DNA of 64,000 nucleotides from Spizellomyces punctatus DAOM BR117 (GCA_000182565.2 KQ257452.1), one strand, 5' to 3'. Counted from the first letter of the stretch, positions 1 to 53,866 are shown. Notes: a model not told the origin generated them from the sequence alone. Program-made: numbers and translations.

Positions 1-98
1 CCCATGTGTGAAGGGCCGGGGAGGGGGGGAACGCAGAGTACCCGCGCTACAACTCCCCGCTCATTTTTCTGCGATACACACACATTAAAACCCCGACG

Positions 99-2629
99 AT
101 GCACACCCCGACAGCACTCTTACTCCTTCTCATCGCTTTGGTGACCCTCCCGACCGTCTCTGCGTTCGGTGCAGGCAATATTCCGTCCATTGCGTTTGTG
201 GAGGGCAAGGCGTTTCGACATGGTGATATTGAAGATGTGATTGCGTCGCTGGTGTTATCGCAGGGTGCTATTTCGCTTTTGAGTAAAAAGTTTGGGGGGT
301 TGGATGTGAAGAGGGTTTATTTCGGTAATTACACAAAAACACAAAACAATTATTGTGCATTCTTACAAGAACGAAACTCTTACTTTTTTCTTTTCGTTAG
401 GGAATTGGTTACGAGATTACTCTCAAGCCATTGACGTCGGCACACTCTCAAAAGGCCTCAACAAAACCACCTTGGTGACCCTCGTTTCCATCCTCGGGTT
501 TCTAGCCTTTGGATACGCCACCGCCGAATTCGAAGTCACCGAAGATCGGTTAGGATGTTACCGTGCCGAAGAACACATTGATAACCCAAAAGGATACGCT
601 GATGGTCAAGATGCACGGAAATACGACCCAGGACTTCGTGGACCGGTTGACCCGCGTGAACTGGAGATTGACCCACGAACAGGGTTAAAAAACTATATCG
701 CAAATGAAGGGGGTGGGTGGCCTACTTCCTCTGCTTTTGTCCGTGCGACACTCGAACGTGCGATTCAAGCTTACCGCTCTGGAAACGAGTATGAGGGGTT
801 TAGACTCTTGGGTACCGCGTTGCATACTTTGGAAGATTACCCAGCTCATAGTAACTTTGTTGAGCTTGCCTTGATTGAACTTGGGTATGATTCTGTGTTT
901 CCGTTTGTTGGTGAAGCTACTGCGTTTCGGCAGGGAGTGGATTCACGTACGGGGAGGAATCGTCCTATTTATCCCATTGTGACTGGAACGTTTGGTGGAG
1001 CCGATTTTGTTCATTCCTTGTTGGGCGAAGCCACGGATCACGTCTCCGCTGCTTCGATTTCCTCGCTCAACAGCGAAATGGAGGCTGCTAAACGGTCTTT
1101 TGATGACAACTCCCTTCCGGATCTGTTATCCAAGGTCCCGGGTATGGAAGACGTGACGCGTCAGGTCCGTGACGTTGAACGCGCGCCCGTGAGCACCGAC
1201 CCCGCAGAAATGAAGGCAAGCGTATGGAAGATTTTGGAGTTGCGTGATCGGATCGTCAAGGGCGTTGAAATGACGATTGAAAAAATTCCTGGTTTGAGCT
1301 GGCTTTCGGAAAAGATTTCCGAGACGGTTCAAGTGTTTGTTTTGACGCAGCTTGAGGTCCGTTTTTTATTTTATTTTTATTTTTTTATGTGTATGGCCAG
1401 TGTTTTCTTTTTTTAATTTTTCGTTTTTTTTTTATAATAGCCGTATATGAAACCCATCATGCAGCAAGTCGTTGGTAAACTCCAAAACACGTCCGCAGAA
1501 ATCGTCAACGCAGATTCCCAGCGAGAAATCTTTACCAACCCCCATTGCTCGGATCCAACCCATTCGCTCTTATCCAAGGATCATTTTGATTTATTCTTGA
1601 ATGAGGTGCAGATTGTTGCATATGTTTGCAAAAAATGGAATTTTGAATGTTTATTGACTTTTCTATTAGCCTGCAGGACTCGTCGCCAAAGTCATTGTTG
1701 AACACATTGTCAAAGCTGTCGTCAAGGCCTGGTCAACCTCTGACGCCTCTGCCACGTCCGAAGCCATCAACCTCGCCATGCAAGTCTTTGTTCACCCTGC
1801 TAATTTAGGGTTCGCCAAAACCCCGTTGCAAACTCAAATGTTGGACGTGGTTCGCAAATGGGCTGATGAGAATCGAAGCATTTTGGGACAATTGGATAAA
1901 GCTAGTGTTATGGCTGGACGGAATAGGAGGCATCCTGAGACGGCTGGGCGAGGTTGTGGTGGTGGGTATATTCCACCCCCTCAGCCACAAGCGCAGGCGA
2001 CTTATGGACAGTCTTCGGGAGCGTATGGACAGCAGGGTCCCTCGCCCTCTGGGTATGGGCACCCTCCTAGCTCTGGCTATGGCAATCAGACCGTCCAACC
2101 ATCCGGTTATGGAAATCAGGGAGCTCCGTCTTCTGGCTACGGACATCCTCCTAGCTCTGGCTATGGCAATCAGACGGTCCAACCATCCGGCTACGGAAAC
2201 CAGGCACCTCCGTCATCCGGCTACGGACATCCTCCTAGCTCTGGTTATGGCAATCAGACGGTCCAGCCATCCGGCTATGGAAACCAGGCAGCTCCATCAT
2301 CGGGCTACGGACACCCTCCTGGTTCTGGCTATGGCGATCAGACGGTCCAACCACCCGGTTATGGAAATGCACCTCCTTCATCTGGCTACGGTGCCCAACC
2401 CCCGCAGCCATCTGGATACGGCCATCCTCCCAGCAGTGGCTACGGCGCCCAACCCACTGGATACGGAACGCCTTACGCCCAACCTCAAGGCTACAGTGCT
2501 CAACCACCGGTTCAGACCTTTCCCCAACCGGAACAAGGTGGATACCCTGGCGCAGGTTACGAGGGATCTACTCCTCAGTTTCCTCAACCGGATGGAGGGT
2601 ACGGGAGTGGGAATCAGCAATGGCGGTAA
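99..2629 (+). CDS. HET-C (heterokaryon incompatibility protein C) family protein with signal peptide and G/Y/P/Q/S-rich repetitive C-terminus; 4 exons
   Basis: Motifs FGAGNIPS, FRHGDIED, YFGNWLRDYSQA, EEHIDNPKGY, LHTLEDYPAHSNF and SDPTHSLLSKDHF. GT-AG introns 325-400, 1357-1440 and 1606-1669 join the ORF pieces in frame. Confidence 0.93.
2048..2385 (+). repeat. Coding tandem repeat, about 4 copies of an 84-nt unit (28 aa, SGYGHPPSSGYGNQTVQPSGYGNQxAPS)
   Basis: Directly visible in DNA (CCTCCTAGCTCTGGCTATGGCAATCAGAC recurring every ~84 nt) and in the 1778..2629 translation. Confidence 0.9.
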
Positions 2630-28385: not shown

Positions 28386-29037
28386 GGAATTTAATGGCAT
28401 ATGGATAAACAACACTTTTTGCCACTTAAGTTTGTCGTATATATGTTAAAGTGACGACAGAACAACGAAATTAAAAAAATACAGCCTTTTCCTTCTATCT
28501 CTCTCTCTTTCTTACTGTTCAAGCACTTTTGAACGCCACATTGTGTGTATTTCTTTTTTTTTTTTCTCTCCCCTCCATTAAACATCTTTTTGGCACACAC
28601 TTTGTCATCGTCGTCGTCTCTCCCTCCCCCACAAGATTGATTTTGTTGATTACTTGTTTCCCTCTCCCGACGTTGGATGAATGACGGTGGTGATGACGCA
28701 TGCGTCTGCAACACTCTGAAATTTAGGGTTATTCATCCCAAGGGACAACCTTTTTAGCTGCATTATTGTGTGTTTTGAGAGGTGCTATCTTGTGTGTGCT
28801 TTCTTCCGCCGTATTTCTTTTTTCTTTTTGGTGCCATCGAGTTATTCGAGTTTCTTACGACGAAAGCACGTTACGTCGATCAGGCGTGTCTGCACATCCC
28901 TTGTCGGGAACAACCCTTTCACACCTCTCCTTCCATCACCTCCACTACCATACGCGGAACAGTCTAGTCTCCGCATTCGCCTAGTCTCGACTCTCCTTGG
29001 TTCAAATTTCGGTTCGTCTTGTTCGAAAATCCCGACG

Positions 29038-30361
29038 ATGGGGGAACTCGACCATCCCGTCCCACCACCAACCCCACTATCACCACATCACTGCGCACCC
29101 TCCGCCTCTGCTCGGTCTTCGTTTTCGTCGCAAACGTCCGGAACTTCAACCTCGTCTCGGAATCAGACACGAACGCCGACACCCCCAGTCCAAGAGCCCC
29201 AGAGGACACGAAAACGAAATCTGGATGCAGCAGTATCACTGCCTGCTGATGCAACAGTGTTGAAACCACCATCAGTCATCGATGGTGGTAACTTTCACCC
29301 AAATCAGATTGACCAGCGCACTCTGCATAACGGTGCTCTCCCATCTACTACCCCCCAACTTCTTCCCCGCTTACCCCCCGTCAACGATCTCAATCTGAAT
29401 TCGAGTCGTCAACTCTACCCTTGGGACATGAAACTCCCCGATATCCAACAACCGCACATCTTGAACCCGCCAGCGCATTCTGTCTCGCTACCCTCACTTG
29501 GGCCCCTAACAACCTCACAATTCAGGGACGTGGACCTGGATTCGACACGAACCAAGCGAGCACGTAAAGCCAACATGGCACCGAACCTATTAAAGCCTAT
29601 TCAACCAATTCTTTCCCAACTTGTCCCGACGTTGGTAAATCCTTCATCCCTTTCCCCAGTTATGACGAGTATGCCGCAACGACAAGAGCCGCAATCATAT
29701 AGTGGTCGGGATTCAGGGTCGAGTGATGACCCTCCTAAAAGCCAATCGCAAGATCATGACTCTGATTCAGAAAACGGCATAATGGATCGCGGAGCGAATG
29801 TAGCGAGTTCTTTGAAGAGAAAGAGAAATGCATCGGACGAGTACGATGTAAAAGAGTCTAAATTGGCGCATAAGCGAAAAATGAACGCAGGCATGTGTTT
29901 TACTTTTATTACTATCTGGCTTTTGTTTAGGGCGTGATGGCTTAGCCCTTTCTATTATCTTTATAGAAGCCGCTAGAAGGTGCCGAGAACGGAAAGCGCA
30001 GCGCATCCAAAGTCTCGAAGACCAAATCACAACGGTTGAACAATCCAACGCAGAACTCATTATGCGCAACGCCATTCTTGAGAACGAACGACGAGCTTGG
30101 AAAACGACCGAAACCAGTCTTCGAGACCGGGTATCCAATTTAGAAGACCGATGCAAAGAGCTGGAAGCCCAGCTGCAGAATGCAAGGATGGGATTATTGT
30201 TTCATGCTGCAAGTCAGACTGGGAGTGGGTTGGGAAGTCCGATTTCACCAGAGGCGGAGTTGGAGGAGTCCCAGGGTGCGTTGAAACAAGAGGGAACCAA
30301 CAAAGTGGATACAAAGGACGAGTCAGTGGTGGAGGCACCTGTTGTGGGAACTGAGACTTGA
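29038..30361 (+). CDS. bZIP transcription factor, Gcn4/CpcA-like basic region with long zipper
   Basis: KRKMNA|EAARRCRERKAQRIQSLEDQITTVEQSNAELIMRNAILENE is formed by splicing the GC-AG intron 29891-29966. Confidence 0.85.
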
Positions 30362-33300
30362 AAAAACTGGGTTAAAATGAAAACTCTTTTAATGTGTTGA
30401 TCTTACGTCAGTTTTTTCCTGTTGTAGTTGTTTTGTCCCTGCTTTTCTGTAAATATTACCTGTTTCCGGGAGAAACGTACGTTTTCCCAATCAGTATTAG
30501 ATGCGTTTCATTGTTTGTCCTCGACTAAAGCCTGTTAGGACTTGTAGTCGGACAAACACCTGCACAGAAACACACATTTGGCCATAGCAGAATTTTGCAC
30601 ATGATTGCAATGCCAAAGAAAACTAATTCTTCTCGAGCGTTCTGGTAAGAATCATGTTGTGTTCTTCAGTGGAAAGTTTGCCATCATGATGCAAAGCATT
30701 GGATAAAGTGTCAGAAACAAAGCATCACAGCCAAGAGATTGGAATTCAGTATCTCTATAATCCACGCCAAACGCCAGAACCGTGCAATTGGCGAGGACAC
30801 TCCATACATTTGCCATTCGTTAGCCCATAGCGTACCTGTGATTCCCTGATTATACCTTTCTGGACTATGTATCCAAAGCCTGCAATGTCTTTTCAAGAAC
30901 AATTAAATGCTACAGATAAATTGGCGACCCGTCAAGTCGCAAGGGTGATTTTAAAGATGGCAGGATGGCATTCGGATTGAGGATCAATTTCTGATTTCAT
31001 CCCCTGCGATTAGTTTCTGTATTTCGTTCCAGCTTGCAGTATGATCCGTAACTAGGAGCTTTCACCATGAATGAGCATATCTCAACTACGATATTACTAG
31101 TTTTTAAACGTTATGAAGACAAGGAAATGAGTGATCGATAAACCAGGCCGATATGTAGGTCGAACAACTGAGCAACAACCCTTCATGATCACGTGGCTAT
31201 ATCAAAGGTTGCTCTGAATTTGACAATTGCCAACTTTTGTTTGTACGCACTCCATCTGGGCATAGTACACTGGCCAGTCGCGAGTATGGCCAAATAAACA
31301 AAAATGTGGAGTAATAAGATGAAGATGTGCTCAAAGGCGGGGATATTTTCTCATTGGGAGTACCTTTTACAGCAAAACCGTCCATAATGTTCCCCGCTGT
31401 ACAGATTGCCCCATTTTCATCGATTCAATCACCAAATATATCCCAAATCAAGAGAAATGGGTGCAAGGAAGGCGAACACTCTGTATTGTGATCGTCATTA
31501 TGGAATTTATGTGGTTCCCAGTGGATTTCGTCGGGGACTTTGCTAATATTGGTTTTTTGGATGGCATTATGGAAATTAGTTGGACCATCCGTAAATTGGG
31601 GGTTGATGACAAGTGACGTCTACTTGGCTCCTACCAGGCAGCAACAGAAAGTTTTTGGCAATGAAGGAATGTTTACAGTCTTGAACTTTTTGCGTATCTG
31701 GATTTCATTTGCATGTAGACTGCTAAGCAATTTAAAAAAGGGCTGGGTAGTTAAACCTTGTCCACAATTATTTTTACCCTAGACTCGCGTGGCCTTTTGA
31801 CTTGCGTTTATTTTTTGCTCTGGTTTGTTCTCCAAAACCTGGTTTTGCCCAACTTCTTAACGAAAATCTATGAAATCCACACCGTTTTACACGGTTCAAA
31901 CTGTCCTCTCCTGTTGGATTTCACTCTTCGTTATTTAAAGTAATACACCCATCGTAGTCATAGTTATACCACTTCCCACCAGGAATCCGCTCAGAGAGTT
32001 AAAATTTCGGTATCAAAGCTCATGATTCTTCTATCGTGGTGCAGTCATCTGGCGATGGGACGGACTCGTATTGGTACGAAAACCAATTTTGGTTTCTTAT
32101 GCACTTGCAAGTCGAAAACCGTCCCCATGAAATCAACTCTATCAGATTCGGTGTTGTCACCGTAGTCATCCGTCGTTTGTTTCTGACATAAATTACTCTC
32201 GCTTCCACCGTGCTGGTGGAGCAATTCTCAACCGTCCAGTACGTTTCTGATTGTTTTGCCAAAGTCGCCAATTTCCTTTCTCGCGAGCCAAACAAGTCTG
32301 TACGTCTACGCCCTTCAAGACTCTGTTCATTGTGCAAAAATCGAGTGGAATGGACAAGATTATTGCGGTTCCCGGTTCTTAAGTTCAATGCGATAATGTT
32401 GGCCCATGATACCCTATCTAACATCTTTGGTGCCCGTAGACTATTTTTACTAGAGAAATGACTTTGTATACTTTTGCTGGAAGAGTTTGATTTCCTGATG
32501 GAGCTCGAATAGATGAAATATTGTTACGATCCGTCTGAGGCAGAATAGGATACAATTATCCGTAGAGAATGGGCTAATCACTGCTTTCGAGGTCGTCGCC
32601 AGGCAACAATTCGCCCGCTGAAGGGCCATGTTGTTTTGGCATGCGGGTTTGCTTGACCAACTGCTTGTACAACAGGATAATGCTTGATACAAGGTGTTCT
32701 CTATGATTCGTCAGGTCAACACTATTTCTTTATTTTCACAGAATATTACAAGACCAGTGCAACTACTGCCTTTCTCCTTGCTGCCATTATTCTTTTCCAA
32801 TGCAGCAGACCAAAAATCTCCTCATCTGCGCACTTGGTGGCATGTCGAGAATGCTTTTGATCTGGTTAAGTCTTGATCCCGCAGATCCGCGTGAGATCCG
32901 CCGTGATGTCCAATCTCGTCTGTTGTGTTTTCAAATGAAGCATGCACTTGCTTTAGGAGGTTCTCATTTTCGTTACCGCATTGTTCAATCTCTGTGACGC
33001 AATGTCGAAATCGGGGGTGCCGCTAGAGTAGTAGCAGGAGGACTGCTGCGTCTTAAACCTACCAGTCCATGGAAGACTGATGATCGCTATCAATGTTGTA
33101 ATTGTTTATTTCTCAACACTATTATAACAAACAACTGCTGTTGGTGTTGTCATCTTGCTCATTATGGATGCCGCATGCAAGGTACATAATCTCGAGTACT
33201 CTCACCGTCCTGCTGACGGTGATGATAGCCAGATCCGCCAACCGGAGATCAGTGTAATCTTTTTTACAGTATATGCACAGGGCGATACAAAGTGATAGAC

Positions 33301-33409
33301 TATATTGTCTTTTGATCCACCTCTGCAACTTTTGTTTTGGGCATTATGAACTATCGCTATTTGTTGCATCGCCGGGCGCCTGATGGATCTATCCAATTGT
33401 TATTGACTA

Positions 33410-34200
33410 TTGCCAAGCTTGTTTGGACTTGGTTCTGGTGATGATTTATCGTCGTGTTTTACTGGTCGATTGAGGCTCGGGACTGCCCGACAAGGCTATT
33501 TGGATAAGAATGACTTGAAGAAAGGCGGTGTGGTCAAAGAAGATATTTTATACCAGGTATATAAGACAATTCTACCACATTTTTTAAATTTGACAAGTTG
33601 GTCTAGTGGTTTACAGATCACCTACACCTGTTATTCAGATCCCAAAAGCATCAAGACATTGATTGCTGTCATTTTACTAAGGCTGGTCGCAGCGGAAGCC
33701 ATCTGTCTCGTGCACGGTATCTCACTCTCCTCTTGGCGCAATGAAGGGATCAATGCGTTGGCATCAAGTGCAAATTGGGTTAGTTTTTGTTTTAAGCTTG
33801 CTGATCAAGATTGGGTGAATACGTGGAGAGCAGCGAATTACCTCACAATCACAAACTGCTCACCATGGGCTGTTACTACTCAGGCTTTCGCTTTGGACTT
33901 GGGTTTCAGCATTATTCGTTGTATCTGGCAGGGATAGATCAATGGCTATTTCCTCCATCTATGGTATTTGTTTGTCTCAGTATTGCGGCAACTTGTGGAA
34001 AGTCACCCGATCATTCACGAACTGAGGCGTGTACCTATCATCCAATACCTGGTCTGACATGCTCGTTATATACTGGAAATGACGTTGCAAAGTATCATTA
34101 CTGCTGTACACTCGAATTAGACTGAGCAAAAACAAACCCGCAGCTGGCAGTGCCGTCGCCAGAACAAGGTCAGGGATTCCGCGCTTTGTTTTTTGTGTAT
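33410..34200 (+). pseudogene. Possible decayed multi-TM membrane protein gene (DUF6534-like)
   Basis: FTGRLRLGTARQGYL...ILYQ|ITYTCYSDPKSIKTLIAVILL...ICLVHG, with intron-like 33557-33616. Downstream fragments break across frames. The family resemblance is from memory only. Confidence 0.3.
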
Positions 34201-34684
34201 ATCCATCGTAAAACATAATTTGACATTTCCCTTAACCTGGCCAGGCATATTAGAGAATATTATAGTTGGAACGATGCATTCATGTTTGGGAGAAGATGCC
34301 TAGAACTACGCCCATAGAGTAATGAATAGTAGTAAGACAATTTGAAACTAACTAAAGTGCTACAGCGGTAATACTAGAGAATGGACCGAAGCAGTGTAGT
34401 GATGGACTCTCAAATATATTGTAAGTACATTGAGAAATTGGAAAAATGTATAATACGAAAAAGAAAATCCTACGCTATGTACGAACACTTGGTACAGCTC
34501 AAAATACCCGTTAATCCTTGATTGAGAAAAAAAGCAATTCGCGCGAGCCAAGTCGGTGTCTGCTCCAGGTTTTTGTTTGTAAACCCTATACGAGACCAAA
34601 AAGCAACCTAGGACCCAATGTTCCAAAGTAAAAAGACGGTATTTACAGGTGTACTTGCCAAAATAGATTGTCGCGAAGAGTTTC

Positions 34685-36139
34685 TTATTTCAATGGGTTC
34701 TTGACCATGAGAGAAATCACCTCAAACAGCACATCGGCAGCCGCCTAATAAAAGAGTTGGTTAGCATGGGGAACTAATCTAGGCATCGTTCATATACACA
34801 TTTGCTTACCATGGTGGTCAACTCAGCGTTGGTATCATATGCTGGGGCAACTTCGACCACATCAGCACCGACAAGCTTCACGCCGTCCAAAGACCTGATA
34901 ATGGTGCGAAGTTCCCGAGTAGTCCAACCACCGGTTTCAGGCGTGCCAGTTGCAGGAGCAAATGCAGGGTCCAGCACATCAATGTCGATGGAGAGGTACA
35001 CCAAATTGTCGCCTACTGCCTTCTTGATCCTCTCGGCAATGCCCTTGGTACCAATCTCATCAATGTCACGGGCTTCGATAATGTGGAATCCGCATAGTGC
35101 ATCATTGTCGTAGTCAGAGGGACCTGAAAGTGTGGGTACGGATACCAGCGTGGATGGAGCTTCCGTTTTTGATCAAACCTTCCTGAGAGGCGTGGTAGAA
35201 ATACGTTCCGTGATTGTAAGCGCCCTGCTCCGACTTTTTCCCACCAAACACTTTTGGCTTCCATGTGTCGATATGGGAATCAAACTTAAAAAAAAAAATG
35301 TAGCAAGGTGAGATATGGTCAAAGTACTAGGTAAGGTAAGATTGACGTACATGAACGACGGAAACGGGTCCATAAGCCGAAGCGATACTTCTCAAAATGG
35401 GCAAAACAATGGTATGGTCTCCACCAAGAGTCACCAGACGAGGGAATTGAGCAGCAAGCGTACCAGGGAACAACCGATGTGCGGCCGGTGTACGATGCAA
35501 CAATTCCTTGTGTCCATACTGCATTTGTTCAATGGCCAGAGCATTGTCGTAGGGTGTGACTGGGACGTCACCACAATCTATTATCTTTGCCCAGCTGTTG
35601 AAAGGGTTGACGTTTTGGGGAACATTGTAACCCTGTCATGAATACAGCGATTTTAGTAGATGCTCTCATAAGTTGAGTAAAAAGTTACGGCAAAACTCAC
35701 CCCGTAAAGAACAAGTCGCTTACTGCCCTGTCTAATACCGGCAGGTCCGAACCGAGCACCGGGACGGTAGCTGGTAGCAGTATCGAAAGGCAATCCAAGA
35801 ATAGCAATATCGTAGTCAACATCCTTGTCCTTCCAACACCTCTCGCTCGGAAGGTGTGCAAAAGTTGTAATGCCAGAGAAAACACTACATGATTTTCAAT
35901 TAACATTGTGTGTCAAAAAAACAAACGTTAACTGATCGTGCAAGGATATCAAACTTTTACCTGTCAGCAGTAACTTCACCGTCACCCGGGATAGAATGCT
36001 CAGCAGAACCCTTGTTGAAAGTAGATTGACCGTTCATAACCACTTGATACAGGTCGTTCCCTCCATGTGGGTAAGCACGGCCTTTACACGAGAAATAGGC
36101 TAATACAGCCAAACTGCTTAGAAGCGCCGAAGTGAGCAT
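34685..36139 (-). CDS. Agmatinase (ureohydrolase/arginase family) with signal peptide; 1-nt frameshift at ~35135 in this assembly
   Basis: [68 protein letters not shown] and [10 protein letters not shown]; four introns. Confidence 0.9.
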
Positions 36140-36284
36140 TGTAGAGATGTGTCGAGGTAGAGGTAGTGGGACGATCTTGTACAAGAACTCTGGCATATGG
36201 AAGATGGTTGAGTGTGGGGTTGCATTTTATAGAAAAAAAGGATATAATGAGGTCGGGTAAAACCGTAGAAAAGACAAGAAGTCA

Positions 36285-36591
36285 AGATAAGATGGAATAT
36301 TGGATGAAATAAAAGTATTTGACGATTCTGTAGGCCAAAATCTCCTTTGTAAAAAAAAAAAAAGTTATAAGTAGGTCAAGTCTAGTTGGTTAACTTTTGC
36401 CTATCTTTTAATTATTTCGTAAAGAGAAATACTTGAGTGTTATCAAATATTATTACATAACGGGATTTTTGAACGCGGTCCCGATCGGCTCGCTTTTCGA
36501 TGAGACCATCTTTCTTTAAGCAAGATATCCGATAAGCACAATGCGTAGAGACAAACGTTTAAGACATTGTATGCTTCAGATACCATGATAA
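36285..36591. promoter_or_regulatory. Cluster of 5 HGATAR (GATA-factor) sites in the agmatinase/MATE divergent promoter
   Basis: AGATAA 36285, CTATCT 36401, TTATCA 36440, CGATAA 36530, TGATAA 36586. Confidence 0.5.
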
Positions 36592-36786
36592 AGTAGTATC
36601 TTCAGAAATTACAAAAAAGAAAATGGGCAGGCTATAATTGGAAGGGGAATTCAGCTTAACCCCATTTACATGGCTCGGAAAACTTTTAAAAGTCGAACAT
36701 CCTTTTTACTACCATTTCCAAAACAACAATCATCTAGAGTTTCTTCACATTTTAATCCTCCATCTAGTAGAAGTATATCCGGCATT

Positions 36787-38519
36787 ATGACTCTATTTTC
36801 CCGTGAGCTTGAAGACGGNNNNNNNNNNNNNNNNNNNNNNNNNNNNNNNNNNNNNNNNNNNNNNNNNNNNNNNNNNNNNNNNNNNNNNNNNNNNNNNNNN
36901 NNNNNNNNNNNNNNNNNNNNNNNNNNNNNNNNNNNNNNNNNNNNNNNNNNNNNNNNNNNNNNNNNNNNNNNNNNNNNNNNNNNNNNNNNNNNNNNNNNNN
37001 NNNNNNNNNNNNNNNNNNNNNNNNNNNNNNNNNNNNNNNNNNNNNNNNNNNNNNNNNNNNNNNNNNNNNNNNNNNNNNNNNNNNGTGCATTTGCCTTTAT
37101 GTTCGTCATGGTCACTGGGTGGGTGATGGCACTTGGATCCACACCCGCATTAGGTATCCATCCTTTTGAGCCTTTCCTCCGCTTTATACCTGTCAAACTA
37201 AAATCATCCGCTCAATCTCTCGCATAGACACGCTCTGTTCTCAGTCATGGACGGGTGCCGAAGATCGACATGAAGTTGGCATTCACCTACAAAGAGCACT
37301 CATGATCCTCTCATTGATGTACATCCCGATTGCCCTCCTTTGGTTCTTTGCCGAGCCGGTTTTACTGGCTTTGGGACAGGAACCAGAATTAAGCAGAATG
37401 AGCGCTTTGTTTATGAGGTGGTTGATTCTGGGTGCCCCTGGGTATATTTACTTTGAAGCCATCAAGTACGTTCACACCGTTCGTTATCCTGATTTTTTTC
37501 AGCACCTCATCGTTTTCCTTCATTAGAAAATACTTGCAAGCTCAAGGCATCATGCATGCTTCTACATTGGTATTAATGATCGCTTCTCCTCTCAACCTAC
37601 TCTACCTCTACCTCCTCGTACCCAAACTCGGCTTCATTGGCGGCGCAATTGCAATCTGCATCACATACTGGTCAATGCTCATTCTCCTTATCGGGTACGC
37701 AGTGCTCATTAACGGATCAGAGGGCTGGGGCGGTTGGTCTCGTAAATCCTTGCAGCAGTGGGGAACATTTTTGAAGCTCGCTATTGCTGGGATACTGATG
37801 GTTGGCAGCGAATGGATTGCTTTTGAAATTGTGGCTATTCTGGCGGGGTGGTTGGGAACCGTTCCGCTTGCGGCACAGAGTGTGGTTATGACTGCGGATC
37901 AGATCTTGAATACGGTGGGTACATGAAATCTCATTGTTCAGATACGCGGAAGACGGATAATTAATGTTCTCATTTGTTATGATGACAGATTCCTTTTGGT
38001 ATATCAATCGCAACTAGCAACCGCGTTGGTAACCTTTTAGGCCTTGGCTGCGCTCGCCGAGCACGCATGTCCTCTTATGCGTCGGCCTTCCTTGCTGCTA
38101 CAATGGGTACCATCATGCTCATAACTTTGATGCTCTCCCGCACAACTCTCCCCCTTCTCTTCTCATCGTCTCCGGAAGTAGTGGACCTGGTTGCACGGGT
38201 TCTTCCGTACGTGGCTCTCTTCCAAATCGCCGACGGTCTAGCCAATGCGTGTGGAGGGGCGCTGCGTGGAATGGGACGACAGAAGATTGGGGCATGGTGT
38301 AACTTGATCGGATATTATGTTTTGGCATTACCAATGGGTGTCGCCTTGGCATTTAAAGGTCGTATGGGTTTGATTGGGCTTTGGGTTGGACAGTGCGCTG
38401 CATTGTGCATTGTAGGGGTATTGGAATTGGGAGTCATTTCCTTGGGAACGAATTGGCGAAAGGAAGTTGAGTTGTGTAAGAAACGAGTAGCGATGGGGGA
38501 GATATGCGGTGGACATTAG
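36787..38519 (+). CDS. MATE family efflux transporter (5' end uncertain, spans gap 36819-37084)
   Basis: ALDTLCSQSWTG, GIHLQRA, LLALGQEPELS, YLQAQGIM, SEWIAFE, LAAQSV and GGALRGMGRQKIGAWCNLIGYY. Confidence 0.88.
36819..37084. other. Assembly gap
   Basis: Run of n. Confidence 0.99.
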
Positions 38520-38748
38520 AGTCCATAACTGGTGACATTATAGTTAGAAACGTTTGTAATTAGGTAGTTGTCTTCAAACACATACACACACTTTAACATT
38601 TGTCACAAGACATGTATACACTTTATATATATTTTTACAAAAGAGAATCATGCGGAAGACTGAACTCTATACACACTGACTCACCGCCACCTGCATAACC
38701 TAGTCAACAAACGGTACCAGACGCTGAAAAAAGCACGAATCAGTCTTG

Positions 38749-39744
38749 CTAATTGTTGATATTCAACTGTGACCAACACATACCTAGGAATGCACGCAGC
38801 GAGGGTAACAGGTTAGCTGCAAGTTCCATTTCTTTCAGATGCGATGTATACAAAAGTGAAGGAGAGATTGGGTTCTCCGAAAGCGAGGGTGATGATGACC
38901 GTGAGAGTGGGGTTGCTTCCCTGACCAAACCGGTGGGAACCGGCATTGGAACATACTACAAGACAAGAGAAGCCGCCTAGGATCAGGTTGTCCTGATTGA
39001 CCAAACGGGCAACCGAATACTTGCCGATTCTTTAAATGACAGCGTGATAGGGGTGATAGGGGTGATAGGGGTAATAGGTGAACCAAGGTTCGGCTAAACA
39101 GAATGTTCCAAACTAGGATCACCTATCTACAGACGACATCAATGTGAAAAACACCACTTGCCAAAGCTAGCGTCTCTTGTATAGTATCTGATGGAGTGTC
39201 CGACACGGTATGAAGGAGCTGATCGAAGACACATGGCTTGGCGCTCAGCTCCATGGGTGCATCCAATGACGAGAGTAATGATTCCAGGTCAGCTTGAGTC
39301 GAATCGCATATGGATGCTGGCGGCGTTGGCGGAAACAAGTCTTGGACTTCAACTGGAGCAGACTGCGTTGCTTGTTCGCCTTGGCCATCCACAATGCGGA
39401 CAAGCATACTTTTCAGTCGTGTGACCTCACGTCGAAGGTCTGCCACTTCTGTCTCTTTTTCTTTCAGAGCTGTGGTCAATCGCGTCTCTCCTTCGCGAAG
39501 AAGACTGACTGTGCGCTGAAGGTCCTCCACAGTGCTTTCAAGGCCAGCATAATACTAAGAGGATAGATTCATGAGGCGAGAATTGGGCAAAAGCAGTGGA
39601 CCATGCTCTCACCTCCATCTTTTTTGCTCGAAAGGCTGCTTGCGCTGTTCGGTTGCGATCCTTGCGCTGTTCATCTGTGAATATCCTGTGACGCCCTCGC
39701 CTCTTTTGTTTCGAGGACTGGAAAGCAGGGCAAAAGTTGGACAT
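38749..39744 (-). CDS. bZIP transcription factor (AP-1/Yap-type basic region)
   Basis: RKDRNRTAQAAFRAKKME|YYAGLESTVEDLQ... zipper. GT-AG intron 39612-39555 and GC-AG introns 39161-39094 and 39024-38956 give one open frame. Confidence 0.82.
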
Positions 39745-39891
39745 GACAAATGCTGGAGTAAAAAGGCTAGTAGACAAATCTTGTAAAAAAAACAAAGAAT
39801 GTTCAAAGTGCCTTGTGGGGAGTGTTTTCCCCCCACAAACGGGTTAAGCGTTGGAATCCAGCCAGATCCAACCAGTTGAATCTACAAGTGA

Positions 39892-40154
39892 TTATCTTAT
39901 CGTTTGGAAGATAAGCGACAAACTTGAAATAACATCTGGCACAGAAAGAAGGCAGAAGGGAGATTATGGTTTCTCTCTCTCTCTTTGCTACTCAGCCCTT
40001 TTTGTTACAGGGCTTTTGCAAGATAAAGTCTTTGTTATCTTGCAATGCAGAGAGAGGCATGTCAAACGCGAGATAGGGAAACAAGAGGTGTGACATCTCA
40101 CACATGTGCATCTCTCTCCACACACACACACACAAGAGAGATGATTCCCTATCT
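39892..40154. promoter_or_regulatory. Cluster of 7 HGATAR sites in the bZIP/permease divergent promoter
   Basis: TTATCT 39892, TTATCG 39897, AGATAA 39909, AGATAA 40021, TTATCT 40035, AGATAG 40071, CTATCT 40149. Confidence 0.6.
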
Positions 40155-40319
40155 TTATTTTCTTACATACAGCATTTTATTAAAAGTAGATTCGACATCT
40201 CGTTTTTTTACATAAAGAAATATCCCTTCTTTCCAATGTCTTGTCTATAGTGTTAATCTCTTGTTTCTTACTCGAGCCTCCTTCTTGGATTTGTTTCTTG
40301 CATATAAAGTTGTCCAAAT

Positions 40320-40982
40320 NNNNNNNNNNNNNNNNNNNNNNNNNNNNNNNNNNNNNNNNNNNNNNNNNNNNNNNNNNNNNNNNNNNNNNNNNNNNNNNNN
40401 NNNNNNNNNNNNNNNNNNNNNNNNNNNNNNNNNNNNNNNNNNNNNNNNNNNNNNNNNNNNNNNNNNNNNNNNNNNNNNNNNNNNNNNNNNNNNNNNNNNN
40501 NNNNNNNNNNNNNNNNNNNNNNNNNNNNNNNNNNNNNNNNNNNNNNNNNNNNNNNNNNNNNNNNNNNNNNNNNNNNNNNNNNNNNNNNNNNNNNNNNNNN
40601 NNNNNNNNNNNNNNNNNNNNNNNNNNNNNNNNNNNNNNNNNNNNNNNNNNNNNNNNNNNNNNNNNNNNNNNNNNNNNNNNNNNNNNNNNNNNNNNNNNNN
40701 NNNNNNNNNNNNNNNNNNNNNNNNNNNNNNNNNNNNNNNNNNNNNNNNNNNNNNNNNNNNNNNNNNNNNNNNNNNNNNNNNNNNNNNNNNNNNNNNNNNN
40801 NNNNNNNNNNNNNNNNNNNNNNNNNNNNNNNNNNNNNNNNNNNNNNNNNNNNNNNNNNNNNNNNNNNNNNNNNNNNNNNNNNNNNNNNNNNNNNNNNNNN
40901 NNNNNNNNNNNNNNNNNNNNNNNNNNNNNNNNNNNNNNNNNNNNNNNNNNNNNNNNNNNNNNNNNNNNNNNNNNNNNNNNNN
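40320..40982. other. Assembly gap
   Basis: Run of n. Confidence 0.99.
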
Positions 40983-42543
40983 ACGATCTCGTGCTCTGAT
41001 CTGTTGGTTGACCGGATGGATCAACACTATTGGACAAGTTTCTCTCGTATGCTCCATTGCGTTCGGTGGAGCATCCATGATCGCGGCATTTATTCAAGTA
41101 GCGACCGATGATAGCATTATTTTGGATTCTCGCCAAATCTACGGAATATGCCTTGTCATTTTGGTGGGTTAGCAGTGCTCAACACGTTTGTAGTTTTCAG
41201 TTATTCCTAATGGTTATCTTGTGCAGGTGGTGTACGGACTCATTAGTGGCCTTGCCACATCCATTATAGCGAGACTGCAAGTGTACTTTGCTACTGTCAA
41301 CATACTCTCCTCAATTGCCATTGTCATTGCCCTGGTTGTGACCGCATCAAACAAAGGCAACGTCGTGCCAGCCAAGACTGCATTTTTTGAGGTGAGCACC
41401 CTGTTCGTCCCTCCCACTTTTTGGTACGATACTGATATAGAACTTTTCGATTTTTCAGTTCACAAACAACATCAGCTGGCTCAACAGCCCCGGCTTTACA
41501 TTTCTCATCTCGACAACAGGTCCACTCTGGTGTTTGACGGGATACGACAGCGCGGCCCACATTTCGGAAGAAAGTTCCAATGCATCAACTGCCGCTCCCA
41601 GAGCCATCATATACGCCGTATCTGCGATGGGCGTACTGGGTTGGGCAACAATGCTCGCAATCTCTTTCGTTACGACGGACGTGACCAGTGTGGTTAACTC
41701 GACTTTGCCTTTGCCCATGGCCCAAATACTGTTGGACAACATGGGAAAAAAGGGAATGCTGGCCGCTTGGTTCTTTGTAACTTTGACACAGATCGTTGGT
41801 GGTATTCCTCAGGTTAGTTACAATAACCAGGTCATACCAGACGACCTTTTATCATCTTCAATTCCTGATATATCCTCTCCTTTTCATAGTGCATTGACGC
41901 ATCGCGAGCAGTATACGCATTCTCCCGAGATGGCGCTCTTCCCCTGTCTCGCTACTGGCGCCGCCTGAATCCGAAAACTCTCACACCGATCCATGCTGTG
42001 TGGTTTGTCGTCTTCAGCTCCGCCGTGTTGGGGCTTCTTGCCCTCGTTAACTTGACAGCGGTTGAAGCCATCTTCAACTGTGCTGCACTGGCATTGTACA
42101 TTTCGTACGCCATTCCAATTTTGATGCGGATAACATACGGCCGAAAGACTTTCCAGCCGGGACCATTCTCACTTGGATCTTTCAGTGTTCCTATTGGCAC
42201 CGTTGCATGCTGTTTTGTCCTTGTTCAGATCCCTGTGCAGCTATTCCCGCTAGGACCGGTTACAAACCCTCTGGACATGGTATGTTCATGATATTATGTC
42301 TTGTTGAGTGTTACCACTCATATCAATACCTTTATTGTACAGAACTACGCTGTGGTCGTGCTAGGCACTATTCTCATTGGTTCCTTGGGCTGGTTTTTCC
42401 TGGGTGCCCGTAGATGGTTTCAAGGTCCTCGTCTTACAATCTTGGAAGGATCTTCCACAGCAATGGAAATAAATTGCGACAATGAAAAGATTAGAAAGGA
42501 GATGGAGAATGAAATAACGTGGACTGCTGGGCAAGCCGTATAA
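40983..42543 (+). CDS. APC superfamily amino acid/choline (ACT) permease, GABA/polyamine transporter-like (UGA4/TPO5 type); 5' end in gap
   Basis: WLTGWINTIGQV, TGYDSAAHISEESSNA..APRAI, SRAVYAFSRDGALP, FQPGPFSLG, NYAVVV and ARRWFQGP. Confidence 0.88.
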
Positions 42544-42844
42544 ATGGAGGGGATCTATGGAGAGTCGATGTACATTTTTGTGACATTTCTTTTTGTATGC
42601 ATATTATTTTGATCAATAGTTGATATTTACCAATGTTACCAGTATATTGTTCAGCCATCAAAAAAGTTTTTTGATTTACTTTCATCTTGCGATGATAACT
42701 GACAGTGTAAAGTGCAAATGATGGGCATCATATCAATGTGGCTTAGCAATTGATTAGAATGCATGGCTCCAACCATGACGCGGAATCGTCATCGTGCTCG
42801 TCAGCTCATCTCGCGCAACTTTGGGCCAACCTCAGATCACTCTC

Positions 42845-53333: not shown

Positions 53334-53866
53334 ATGTTGAGCAACACAAAGGTGAATGTCCCTTGCTTCAAGTTCACATGCCGTTCAGATCGACCTTACA
53401 TAAATCCATGTAGCCCTCAATGGACAGCGCAATCCGAAAGCTAAAGGTTCAAACGGGCGCAGTAAAACGGTACGCAACGTCGTGCTGCTGCTGGCCTCAA
53501 CAATTCCTAACGTTCATCGTACCAGCATAAGCAAGGACCTTTCATATTATGAAAAGGAAGCAGCTAAACAGCAGGAACGAATCGATAAACTCGTCGCGGA
53601 CGGAGCTGACGAACACGACATTCGCAAACAAAAAGAGGTATTGGAGGAGACCAACCAGATGCTTCCAGAGAGTAAAAAGAGGCTTGCAGCTGCGTATAAA
53701 GAGTTGGCGGATTTGGTAGAGAAGTATTTGGTAAGTAGAGATTTGCTGAGCTGTCTTTCTAATTGGTATTGATGGGGCCTCTCTGCAGAGTGCTGCTGGA
53801 TCTGAGGAAGTTGCACCTGAGGAAGTTCTAGCTGCTCAAACAGTGTTGCAAGAAGTGCGGGTATAA
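53334..53866 (+). CDS. TBCA: Tubulin-specific chaperone A (TBCA/Rbl2)
   Basis: RKLKVQTGAVKRISKDLSYYEKE...GADEHDIRKQKEVLEETNQMLPESKKRL; 3 introns. Confidence 0.92.

What the first reader, a model, noticed from the sequence alone, without database searches (positions are those of the whole stretch)
34685..42543. Candidate nitrogen-regulated agmatine/polyamine utilisation gene cluster
Seen: four consecutive genes in two divergent pairs, namely secreted agmatinase <-> MATE exporter and AP-1-type bZIP <-> ACT-family amine/GABA permease. The two promoters hold 5 and 7 HGATAR sites (7 within ~265 bp), and the block is bordered by a gene-free island. Known: agmatinase converts agmatine to putrescine plus urea, UGA4/TPO5-type permeases move putrescine or GABA, MATEs export organic cations, and clustered GATA sites mark AreA/Gln3 nitrogen-catabolite targets. 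Inference: a self-contained module for scavenging guanidino-amine nitrogen, with extracellular or vacuolar hydrolysis, amine uptake, cation efflux and a cluster-specific regulator. I know of no description of such a cluster in early-diverging fungi.
Basis: partly seen in the sequence, partly recalled or inferred. Interest (0 to 1): 0.75.

Follow-up and report, generated by a model that had tools for sequence, protein, structure and literature searches.

The report
Fungal guanidino-amine hydrolase and transporter cluster
Four neighbouring genes of the chytrid fungus Spizellomyces punctatus (a secretory-pathway agmatinase-like enzyme, a MATE transporter, a small bZIP regulator and an amine/GABA-type permease) look like a small nutrient-scavenging cluster, and its enzyme-transporter pair is also neighbours in distant fungi.

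Summary
The window is Spizellomyces punctatus DAOM BR117 (100% hits). The four genes exist as described, SPPG_01827-01830 by consecutive accessions (01829 and 01830 were seen, the other two are inferred). They are an arginase-family ureohydrolase with a signal-like N-terminus, a MATE transporter, a 187-aa Pap1-type bZIP and an ACT-family permease.

- The enzyme gene carries a +1 frameshift in a 3-base run (35134-35136).
- Both transporter genes are cut by N gaps.

GATA sites:
- The bZIP/permease promoter holds 7 HGATAR against 1.6 expected (0 of 5000 local shuffles). It is the densest spot in the 64 kb (1 of 300 block shuffles).
- The enzyme/MATE promoter holds 5 against 2.4 expected (404 of 5000), which is not exceptional.

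New evidence:
- Enzyme-MATE linkage recurs in Rhizophlyctis rosea, four Pseudocercospora species and a sister Spizellomyces.
- S. pombe SPAC11D3.06-.09 are annotated MATE (used as a vacuole marker), transcription factor, amino-acid permease and agmatinase.
- Both gene trees follow the fungal phyla, so the linkage is vertical.
- Bacterial relatives lack it (1 of 80 loci).
- The bZIP and the permease are not shown to be linked outside the genus.

Substrate (agmatine or 4-guanidinobutyrate), nitrogen control and co-expression remain untested.

The parts
30380..34684 (.). ORF-poor stretch bordering the block on the upstream side
   Evidence: 65 ORFs of >=40 aa gave no Pfam match at threshold. One weak zf-Vps39_C hit lies at 32192-32458 (E 0.0064, below cut-off). 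No repeats, no Rfam family and no tRNA. AT skew is -0.13 to -0.16 over 31600-34000.
34685..36139 (-). Arginase-family ureohydrolase gene ('agmatinase', KND02744; SPPG_01827 inferred). It has 5 exons and a signal-like N-terminus.
   Evidence: Pfam Arginase E 1.9e-36 and 4.6e-13. tblastn exon blocks 36139-35963, 35886-35701, 35632-35135 (with one in-frame 66-nt intron), 35133-34804, 34744-34688. GGDH, DSHID, DIDVLD and EVAP motifs are present. Closest relatives are chytrid proteins at 75-88% identity.
35134..35136 (.). +1 frameshift in a 3-base G run (C run on the coding strand)
   Evidence: All 4 of 4 homologs and the sister-species protein align up to 35135 and resume at 35133. The deposited model P0356 skips the 7 residues IRTTLSG that sister-species P0357 has.
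36140..36787 (.). Shared 648-bp promoter of enzyme and MATE, with 5 HGATAR sites (36285, 36401, 36440, 36530, 36586) and one TTACATAA (36453)
   Evidence: for the sites; 5 against 2.36 +/- 1.47, 404 of 5000 shuffles (tested on 36140-36660). for TTACATAA.
36788..38519 (+). MATE transporter gene (KND02745; SPPG_01828 inferred), interrupted by the N gap 36819-37084
   Evidence: Pfam MatE. P0121 is 100% identical. The full-length sister protein P0338 (482 aa) starts with the residues encoded at 36788 and aligns at 84-97% after the gap. TIGR00797 scores 246 bits against a cut-off of 147.
39044..39078 (.). Tandem repeat GTGATAGGG x3.9 just beyond the bZIP gene's stop codon. It accounts for three TGATAG matches outside the promoters.
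39123..39744 (-). Small bZIP gene SPPG_01829 (187 aa): exon 1 39744-39613, 58-nt intron, exon 2 39554-39123
   Evidence: for the model. P0358 is 100% identical over exon 2. bZIP_1 27.9 bits and bZIP_2 24.2 bits, both above cut-off. The best solved bZIP is S. pombe Pap1 (1GD2), with an aligned basic region. No PAP1 C-terminal domain was found.
39745..40319 (.). Visible part of the bZIP/permease promoter. It holds 7 HGATAR sites (39892-40154), the perfect inverted repeat TTGCAAGATAA-N8-TTATCTTGCAA (40016-40045), a (CA)8 run (40119-40134) and TTACATAA (40208).
   Evidence: 7 against 1.63, 0 of 5000; 1 of 300.
40320..40982 (.). 663-N assembly gap hiding the permease start and about 113 N-terminal residues
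   Evidence: The sister protein P0339 aligns from residue 114 at 40984.
40983..42543 (+). ACT-family (TC 2.A.3.4) APC permease gene SPPG_01830, 3' part
   Evidence: AA_permease_2. P0241 is 100% identical. The full-length sister protein P0339 matches TIGR00907 '2A0304' end to end, E 5.7e-117, 391.6 bits, below the 598-bit cut-off. Relatives are named UGA4-related, GABA permease or plant BAT1.

Best explanation
The core is a conserved two-gene module inside a four-gene block for nutrient scavenging.

Shown:
- An Mn-type ureohydrolase of the fungal 'agmatinase/guanidinobutyrase' group carries a signal peptide.
- A MATE transporter is transcribed divergently from it across a 648-bp promoter.
- The same two genes are neighbours in other chytrids and in ascomycetes.

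Inferred:
- The enzyme works in the lumen of the secretory/vacuolar system or outside the cell.
- There it splits a guanidino compound (agmatine or 4-guanidinobutyrate) into urea plus putrescine or GABA.
- The MATE, a proton/organic-cation antiporter, carries the cationic substrate or its amine product across the same membrane.
- The neighbouring ACT-family permease takes up the amine/GABA product or the guanidino substrate at the cell surface.
- The small Pap1-type bZIP is a local regulator.
- A GATA factor acts on the bZIP/permease promoter through seven sites, two pairs of them inverted.

Nitrogen control is the likeliest reading of those sites, but it is not shown.
For: Families.

Secretory enzyme:
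- 73 of 78 full-length homologs have an N-terminal hydrophobic core, and 26 of 78 end in ..EL.
- C. albicans Agt1 and Gbu1 are 'predicted to be secreted' (PMC7439472 passages).

Linkage of enzyme and MATE: 9 species had both proteins visible.
- 7 are linked: S. punctatus KND02744/45; Spizellomyces 'palustris' g02447/g02448; R. rosea HDV00_005299/005300; P. musae AC579_5929/5928; P. eumusae, one locus tag; P. fijiensis EME87851/50; P. fuligena, same 306-kb contig.
- 2 are on different contigs (Penicillium odoratum, Rhypophila decipiens).

S. pombe (passages): SPAC11D3.06 is a MatE protein used as a vacuole marker.07c is a predicted transcription factor.08c an amino-acid permease and .09 a predicted agmatinase.

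Other evidence:
- Both gene trees recover the phyla, so the linkage is not a transferred block.
- GATA enrichment of promoter 2, with an 11-nt perfect inverted repeat.
- A mammalian MATE carries agmatine (title of Winter et al. 2011, seen in the reference list of PMC4096761).
Against: - No expression, localisation or activity data exist for this organism.
- The enzyme ORF is frameshifted in this assembly. It is intact in the sister species.
- Promoter 1 is not GATA-enriched beyond chance (404 of 5000).
- The bZIP has no ortholog detectable outside the genus (13 hits, only the self-hit below 1e-30, the rest long unrelated proteins (396-6503 aa) matched over many short stretches).
- The permease has no R. 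rosea relative among 97 hits. It sits on other contigs than the enzyme or MATE in 2 of 2 testable species (Cyclocybe, Scleroderma).
- 2 of 9 species have enzyme and MATE hits on different contigs.
- Substrate is unresolved. Solved-structure scores are close: proclavaminate amidinohydrolase 185.5, agmatinases 185.3 and 180.2, guanidinopropionase 170.6, guanidinobutyrase 165.0 bits. TIGR01230 is only just passed, 176.2 against 174.3.
- Orthology of the S. pombe genes rests on names that annotators gave to hits, not on sequences I saw.
Confidence: 0.42

Rival explanations
1. Only the enzyme-MATE pair is a functional unit. The bZIP and the permease are an unrelated divergent pair that happens to lie next to it, and the GATA cluster controls those two genes only.
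For: Linkage outside the genus was seen for enzyme and MATE only. The bZIP has no ortholog outside the genus. The permease is unlinked in 2 of 2 testable species. GATA enrichment is significant for promoter 2 only.
Against: S. pombe has a transcription factor and an amino-acid permease between its MATE and its agmatinase genes. An ACT/GABA-type permease fits the products of either candidate reaction. TTACATAA occurs once in each promoter, 2 of the 4 loci in 64 kb. That motif test was post hoc: 11 motifs were tried.
Confidence: 0.3
2. The enzyme is released outside the cell and hydrolyses external agmatine. The permease takes up putrescine, and the MATE sits in the plasma membrane and exports toxic organic cations.
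For: The N-terminus is signal-like, and the chytrid proteins have no ..EL tail. The same idea is discussed for C. albicans (PMC7439472 passages).
Against: The S. pombe MATE of the matching gene block is a vacuolar marker (PMC6857596 passages). 26 of 78 homologs end in ..EL, which resembles ER retention (this reading of the motif is recalled). K. lactis guanidinobutyrase activity was measured in cell extracts (PMC4149782 passage). A plain efflux role does not explain linkage kept across phyla.
Confidence: 0.2
3. The GATA cluster marks control by a GATA factor other than the nitrogen regulator, for example an iron-responsive or light-responsive one.
For: HGATAR is shared by all fungal GATA factors (established knowledge, recalled). 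No nitrogen data exist for this organism. Language-model look-alikes of the bZIP include HapX-like clusters.
Against: The gene content is nitrogen-catabolic. SPAC11D3.07c appears with positive log-ratios in a table from nitrogen-limited S. pombe cultures (PMC4614384 passage). The bZIP has no Hap4_Hap_bind domain.
Confidence: 0.15
4. Chance neighbours: four unrelated genes with no shared function.
For: Fungal genomes are compact. Any four neighbours can be given a story. Promoter 1 is not enriched for GATA sites.
Against: Enzyme-MATE linkage was seen in 7 of 9 species across two phyla, with vertical gene trees, and S. pombe has a parallel block.
Confidence: 0.08

Closest known systems
Schizosaccharomyces pombe SPAC11D3.06-SPAC11D3.09
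   Same: Four consecutively numbered genes are annotated MatE transporter, transcription factor, amino-acid permease and agmatinase (passages). Annotators named relatives of the window's enzyme and MATE after SPAC11D3.09 ('putative agmatinase 1') and C11D3.06.
   Different: The gene order and strands differ. I recall the S. pombe regulator as a zinc-cluster protein, not a bZIP; this was not seen in any call. I saw no S. pombe sequence, so orthology of the permease and of the other genes is unproven. That consecutive numbers mean neighbouring genes is nomenclature knowledge, recalled.
Candida albicans Agt1 (agmatinase) and Gbu1 (guanidinobutyrase); Kluyveromyces lactis Gbu1
   Same: These are fungal arginase-family enzymes predicted to be secreted, used to grow on agmatine or guanidinobutyrate (PMC7439472 and PMC4149782, passages).
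   Different: No Candida or Kluyveromyces protein was among the best 120 hits. Which paralog group the chytrid enzyme belongs to is unknown. No transporter or cluster is described in the passages I read.
Fungal nitrogen-catabolic gene clusters (yeast allantoin DAL cluster, Aspergillus proline prn cluster); recalled
   Same: Enzyme, transporter and pathway regulator lie side by side, with divergent promoters and GATA-factor control.
   Different: The substrate is different, and a MATE transporter and a lumenal or secreted hydrolase are involved. The comparison rests on memory, not on a call.
Mammalian MATE1 (SLC47A1) as an agmatine carrier
   Same: A MATE-family antiporter that moves agmatine (title of Winter et al. 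2011, seen in a reference list).
   Different: It is a distant animal relative at the plasma membrane. No substrate is known for the fungal protein.
Bacterial agmatinase (SpeB), guanidinobutyrase (GbuA) and guanidinopropionase (GpuA)
   Same: Same fold and metal-binding motifs. Scores are 165-185 bits against solved structures.
   Different: The bacterial enzymes have no signal peptide or N-terminal extension (they align from about residue 60 of the fungal protein). Their genes have no MATE or ACT-type permease neighbour: 1 of 80 loci each within up to 7 kb.

Membership tests
Arginase/ureohydrolase superfamily (Pfam PF00491) | Profile match above the curated cut-off | tested here: met
   126.4 and 49.7 bits on two exons against a cut-off of 22.
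Arginase/ureohydrolase superfamily (Pfam PF00491) | Metal-binding motifs (GGDH, DxHxD, DxD) and the catalytic Glu region | tested here: met
   [24 protein letters not shown] and VVEVAP were read in the window translation and in P0356. Which residues bind metal is recalled, with support from PMC9772407 passages.
Arginase/ureohydrolase superfamily (Pfam PF00491) | Uninterrupted reading frame | tested here: not met
   +1 frameshift at 35134-35136. The gene is intact in the sister species (P0357). Sequencing error or real mutation cannot be told apart here.
Agmatinase proper (EC 3.5.3.11) | Equivalog model TIGR01230 above cut-off | tested here: inconclusive
   The sister-species proxy P0357 scores 176.2 bits against a cut-off of 174.3. 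NF002564 scores 282.6, below its cut-off of 302.
Agmatinase proper (EC 3.5.3.11) | Closer to proven agmatinases than to guanidino-acid hydrolases | tested here: inconclusive
   Agmatinases 185.3 and 180.2 bits, guanidinopropionase 170.6, guanidinobutyrase 165.0, proclavaminate amidinohydrolase 185.5. The counterpart of the carboxylate-capping Arg72 of GbuA could not be fixed.
Agmatinase proper (EC 3.5.3.11) | [quoted passage not shown] | not testable with these tools
   Needs an enzyme assay.
MATE transporters (Pfam PF01554, TIGR00797) | Two MatE repeats and a family model above cut-off | tested here: met
   P0121 scores MatE 156.6 bits over 2 stretches. P0338 scores TIGR00797 246.2 against 147.4.
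ACT family of APC permeases (TC 2.A.3.4; TIGR00907) | End-to-end match to the family model | tested here: inconclusive
   P0339 covers model positions 1-482 of 482, E 5.7e-117, but its 391.6 bits are below the curated 598.3. Relatives are named UGA4-related, GABA permease or BAT1.
Yap/Pap1 (AP-1-like) bZIP factors | bZIP domain | tested here: met
   bZIP_1 27.9 bits (cut-off 27.6) and bZIP_2 24.2 bits (cut-off 22.3).
Yap/Pap1 (AP-1-like) bZIP factors | Pap1-type basic region (N-x2-A-Q-x2-F-R) | tested here: met
   In the alignment to Pap1 1GD2, the window's NRTAQAAFR lies opposite NRAAQRAFR, at a weak E of 0.073. That this signature defines the family is recalled.
Yap/Pap1 (AP-1-like) bZIP factors | C-terminal cysteine-rich PAP1 domain (PF08601) | tested here: not met
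   No PF08601 match at E <= 0.1. The protein is only 187 aa.
Fungal metabolic (catabolic) gene cluster | Physical adjacency of enzyme, transporter(s) and regulator | tested here: met
   Consecutive accessions KND02744-KND02747 and the window coordinates.
Fungal metabolic (catabolic) gene cluster | Linkage conserved beyond close relatives | tested here: inconclusive
   Met for enzyme and MATE (7 of 9 species, two phyla). Not met for the bZIP or the permease (0 of 2 species).
Fungal metabolic (catabolic) gene cluster | Co-regulation | not testable with these tools
   No expression data were available.
Nitrogen-catabolite (AreA/Gln3-type) target promoters | Clustered HGATAR sites above background | tested here: inconclusive
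   Promoter 2 yes (0 of 5000; 1 of 300 window-wide). Promoter 1 no (404 of 5000).
Nitrogen-catabolite (AreA/Gln3-type) target promoters | Induction on poor nitrogen sources that depends on the GATA factor | not testable with these tools
   Needs RNA-seq and a mutant.

The most novel reading that the evidence does not exclude
The signal-peptide ureohydrolase and the MATE antiporter form an ancient two-gene module kept together since before chytrids and Dikarya split. The MATE loads a guanidino cation into an internal compartment, where the hydrolase destroys it. This would be compartmentalised guanidino-compound catabolism or detoxification. It would also give fungal MATE transporters their first physiological substrate class.
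Probability: 0.22. Interest if true: 0.65.

Novelty: new member of a known kind. Interest (0 to 1): 0.5.

Why it matters
Fungal MATE transporters have no established natural substrate, and fungal 'agmatinases' are largely uncharacterised and often misnamed. A gene pair that stays linked from chytrids to ascomycetes gives a concrete, testable hypothesis for both proteins. It also suggests that guanidino compounds are handled in a membrane-bounded compartment, or outside the cell, rather than in the cytosol. It would add a nitrogen-scavenging cluster to the few known in early-diverging fungi. Because S. pombe appears to carry the same gene set, the idea can be tested in a standard model organism.

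Tried and rejected
- Pfam on the two bZIP exons separately gave only sub-threshold or coiled-coil matches. The spliced database record was needed.
- The library-wide search with bZIP exon 2 found only the protein itself plus long unrelated proteins (396-6503 aa) matched over many short stretches, so linkage of the bZIP in R. rosea could not be tested.
- No solved structure matched the permease at E <= 1e-5.
- The residue equivalent to GbuA Arg72 could not be assigned, so the substrate was left open.
- Canonical Yap/AP-1/CRE sites are absent from both promoters. Only TTACATAA is shared (11 motifs tried, post hoc).
- Rfam and tRNA scans of the window found nothing.
- Bacterial and archaeal relatives have a MATE within up to 7 kb in 1 of 80 loci, and an ACT-like permease in 1 of 80. 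The HMMs were built from fungal proteins and several loci are short, so this is a lower bound.
- A GC-matched promoter control failed for lack of comparably AT-rich windows. A GC-binned table replaced it.
- Literature searches found no description of an agmatinase-MATE cluster and no mention of SPPG_01827-01830.
- The one supplement of PMC4614384 held as text did not contain the S. pombe gene names.
- A second S. pombe trio (toe3, SPAPB24D3.02c, SPAPB24D3.03) was confirmed as neighbours only (PMC4700965 passage). Their functions (regulator, permease, agmatinase 3) are recalled and unverified.

Full report
**Source and genes**

The window comes from the chytrid Spizellomyces punctatus DAOM BR117. 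The MATE exon and a permease exon hit that organism's proteins at 100% identity (P0121, P0241 = SPPG_01830). The four proteins carry consecutive accessions KND02744 to KND02747. SPPG_01829 and SPPG_01830 were seen as locus tags; 01827 and 01828 are inferred from the accession order.

A Pfam scan of all 150 stop-to-stop ORFs of at least 100 aa in the window gave these matches in the block:
- Arginase on two minus-strand ORFs.
- MatE on three plus-strand ORFs, one of them weak.
- AA_permease_2 on two plus-strand ORFs.

Neighbouring genes are unrelated by annotation. A NUDIX ORF starts at 42779 and a lipoyl synthase lies further on. A second bZIP lies at about 29885-30358.

**The enzyme gene (34685-36139, minus strand)**

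- tblastn with four homologs and with the sister-species protein gives five exon blocks.
- The metal-binding motifs are all present.
- All five alignments stop at 35135 and resume at 35133. There is one base too many in a run of three (35134-35136).
- The deposited protein model (P0356) hides this by skipping seven residues. The sister species Spizellomyces 'palustris' has those residues (P0357).
- I cannot tell a homopolymer sequencing error from a real mutation. The otherwise high conservation (exon 2 is 100% identical to a Borealophlyctis protein) argues for an error or a very recent change.
- The N-terminus is signal-like. Of the 120 best homologs I kept the 78 that looked full-length: they start with Met, the conserved motif lies at least 70 residues in, and they are under 500 aa. 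42 fragments or fusions were dropped.
- 73 of the 78 have a hydrophobic core in the first 35 residues. 26 of the 78 end in ..EL. The chytrid proteins do not.
- The literature agrees on this point. C. albicans Agt1 and Gbu1 'are predicted to be secreted' (PMC7439472, passages).

**Which substrate**

Sequence does not decide.
- Scores against solved structures are close: proclavaminate amidinohydrolase 185.5, two agmatinases 185.3 and 180.2, guanidinopropionase 170.6, guanidinobutyrase 165.0 bits.
- The agmatinase equivalog model is passed by 2 bits on the sister-species proxy.
- Fungal genes annotated as agmatinase include true guanidinobutyrases (PMC4149782, passages).
- The human 'agmatinase' hydrolyses guanidino acids, not agmatine (PMC9772407, passages).
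- I could not place the residue that caps the carboxylate in GbuA.

Either reaction fits the neighbouring permease. Agmatine gives putrescine and 4-guanidinobutyrate gives GABA.

**The transporters and the regulator**

- MATE. The sister-species protein (P0338, 482 aa) begins with the residues encoded at 36788, just before the 266-N gap, and aligns again after it. Enzyme and MATE are therefore head to head across 648 bp.
- Permease. It is visible only from residue 114 of its sister-species counterpart (P0339, 542 aa), because a 663-N gap hides its start. P0339 matches the ACT-family model TIGR00907 end to end (E 5.7e-117) but scores below the curated cut-off. Its relatives are named UGA4-related, GABA permease or plant BAT1.
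- bZIP. It has two exons split by a 58-nt intron inside the domain. The spliced record P0358 passes bZIP_1 and bZIP_2. Its best solved relative is S. pombe Pap1, with a matching basic region. It has no PAP1 cysteine-rich domain.
- A search of 1.84 billion representative proteins with bZIP exon 2 found only the protein itself below 1e-30. The other 12 of the 13 hits are long proteins (396-6503 aa) matched over several short stretches and look unrelated.

**GATA sites**

- The counts are right: 5 sites at 36285-36591 and 7 at 39892-40154.
- The window as a whole is not enriched: 154 against 160 +/- 13.
- The bZIP/permease promoter is enriched: 7 against 1.63 +/- 1.21, 0 of 5000 local dinucleotide shuffles. 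It is the densest 265-bp stretch in the window. That count was reached in 1 of 300 block-shuffled windows.
- This promoter contains a perfect 11-nt inverted repeat, TTGCAAGATAA-N8-TTATCTTGCAA.
- The enzyme/MATE promoter holds 5 against 2.36 +/- 1.47, reached in 404 of 5000 shuffles. It is not exceptional, although its 300-bp windows (3-4 sites) exceed most other AT-rich windows (0-3).
- Three further TGATAG matches at 39045-39068 come from a 9-bp tandem repeat just beyond the bZIP gene's stop codon.

**Conservation of linkage, the main new result**

Locus tags, accession numbers and contig lengths in the hit lists show the enzyme and the MATE side by side in these species:

| Species | Enzyme | MATE | Note |
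|---|---|---|---|
| Rhizophlyctis rosea | HDV00_005299 | HDV00_005300 | one 226-kb contig |
| Spizellomyces 'palustris' | g02447 | g02448 | permease is g02450 |
| Pseudocercospora musae | AC579_5929 | AC579_5928 | |
| P. eumusae | KXT06522 | KXT06520/21 | one locus tag |
| P. fijiensis | EME87851 | EME87850 | |
| P. fuligena | KAF7187297 | KAF7187300 | same 306-kb contig, accessions three apart |

- Of the nine species in which I could see both proteins, seven are linked. In two (Penicillium odoratum, Rhypophila decipiens) the hits lie on different contigs; these may be paralogs.
- Annotators named relatives of both window proteins after S. pombe 'agmatinase 1' and 'transporter C11D3.06'.
- In S. 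pombe papers (passages only), SPAC11D3.06 is a MatE protein used as a vacuole marker. SPAC11D3.07c is a predicted transcription factor, listed with positive log-ratios in nitrogen-limited culture. SPAC11D3.08c is an amino-acid permease and SPAC11D3.09 a predicted agmatinase.
- That consecutive numbers mean neighbouring genes is S. pombe nomenclature, recalled.

Gene trees:
- I chose the rows to span the phyla: 31 enzyme rows and 33 MATE rows from about 120 each.
- The MATE tree recovers every phylum-level group (Chytridiomycota, Mucoromycota, Basidiomycota, Pezizomycotina, Saccharomycotina) with starred support.
- The enzyme tree does so for Chytridiomycota and Mucoromycota. One basidiomycete row (Macrolepiota) sits inside Pezizomycotina.
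- The linkage is therefore not a transferred block.

Prokaryotic relatives do not share it. Within up to 7 kb, 1 of 80 loci has a MATE and 1 of 80 an ACT-like permease. The HMMs were built from fungal proteins and some loci are short.

**What is not conserved**

- The bZIP has no visible ortholog outside the genus.
- No R. rosea relative of the permease was among the 97 hits.
- In the two other species where it could be checked, the permease sits on a different contig from the enzyme (Cyclocybe) or the MATE (Scleroderma).
- The S. pombe parallel therefore suggests repeated recruitment of a permease and a regulator to the enzyme-MATE core, rather than one conserved four-gene block.

**Mechanism**

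Shown:
- A secretory-pathway ureohydrolase and a MATE share a promoter.
- They stay linked across phyla.
- The S. pombe MATE of the matching block sits in the vacuolar membrane.

Inferred:
- The MATE moves the cationic substrate or the amine product across the membrane that encloses the enzyme.
- The ACT permease handles uptake of product or substrate at the cell surface.
- The bZIP is a local regulator.
- A GATA factor acts on the bZIP/permease promoter.

A mammalian MATE carries agmatine (title of Winter et al. 2011, seen in a reference list).

**Novelty**

- Five full-text searches found no description of such a cluster and no mention of these locus tags.
- The library lacks most subscription journals, and I could not query genome databases such as PomBase or MycoCosm.
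- Fungal nitrogen-catabolic clusters are a known kind, and this would be a new member.
- Its unusual points are a MATE partner, a lumenal or secreted hydrolase, and enzyme-transporter linkage that spans phyla.

**Verdict**

- The substrate name and the nitrogen control are unproven.
- The strongest new support is for a two-gene core rather than for the whole four-gene block.

Noticed in passing
window 35134-35136: +1 frameshift in the enzyme gene inside a 3-base homopolymer. The deposited protein model removes seven conserved residues to bridge it, while the sister species has them.
   Followed up: yes
window 36196: An in-frame ATG 57 nt upstream of the enzyme start is used in the sister-species model. 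It would put 19 residues in front of the signal-like segment. 73 of 78 full-length homologs have the hydrophobic segment within their first 35 residues, which favours the start at 36139.
   Followed up: partly
window 39044-39078: Tandem repeat GTGATAGGG x3.9 just beyond the bZIP gene's stop codon, which creates three GATA-pattern matches outside any promoter.
   Followed up: partly
window 40016-40045: Perfect 11-nt inverted repeat TTGCAAGATAA-N8-TTATCTTGCAA. It looks like a site for a dimeric or paired GATA-type factor.
   Followed up: partly
window 36453 and 40208: TTACATAA, one base from the Pap1-type palindrome (recalled), occurs once in each of the two promoters. The window has four such loci (the others are at 53396 and 58015). 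This was a post hoc observation among 11 motifs tried.
   Followed up: partly
window 31600-34000: The ORF-poor stretch has a steady negative AT skew like plus-strand genes here, and one weak zf-Vps39_C match at 32192-32458. It may be an unannotated transcript or a decayed gene.
   Followed up: partly
window 28720-30358: A second, unrelated bZIP gene (bZIP_1 32.4 bits on ORF 29885-30358) lies just upstream of the ORF-poor stretch.
   Followed up: no
protein P0001 (Sanghuangporus vaninii): An 852-aa model made of two tandem agmatinase-like units, each with its own signal-like start, ending in KDEL. 26 of 78 full-length homologs end in ..EL, which hints at ER retention in some lineages.
   Followed up: partly
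agmatinase tree: The Macrolepiota fuliginosa protein groups with Penicillium and Aspergillus rather than with other basidiomycetes. This could be contamination or gene transfer.
   Followed up: no
window 1-2626: A Het-C (heterokaryon incompatibility) homolog at the start of the window, in a chytrid.
   Followed up: no
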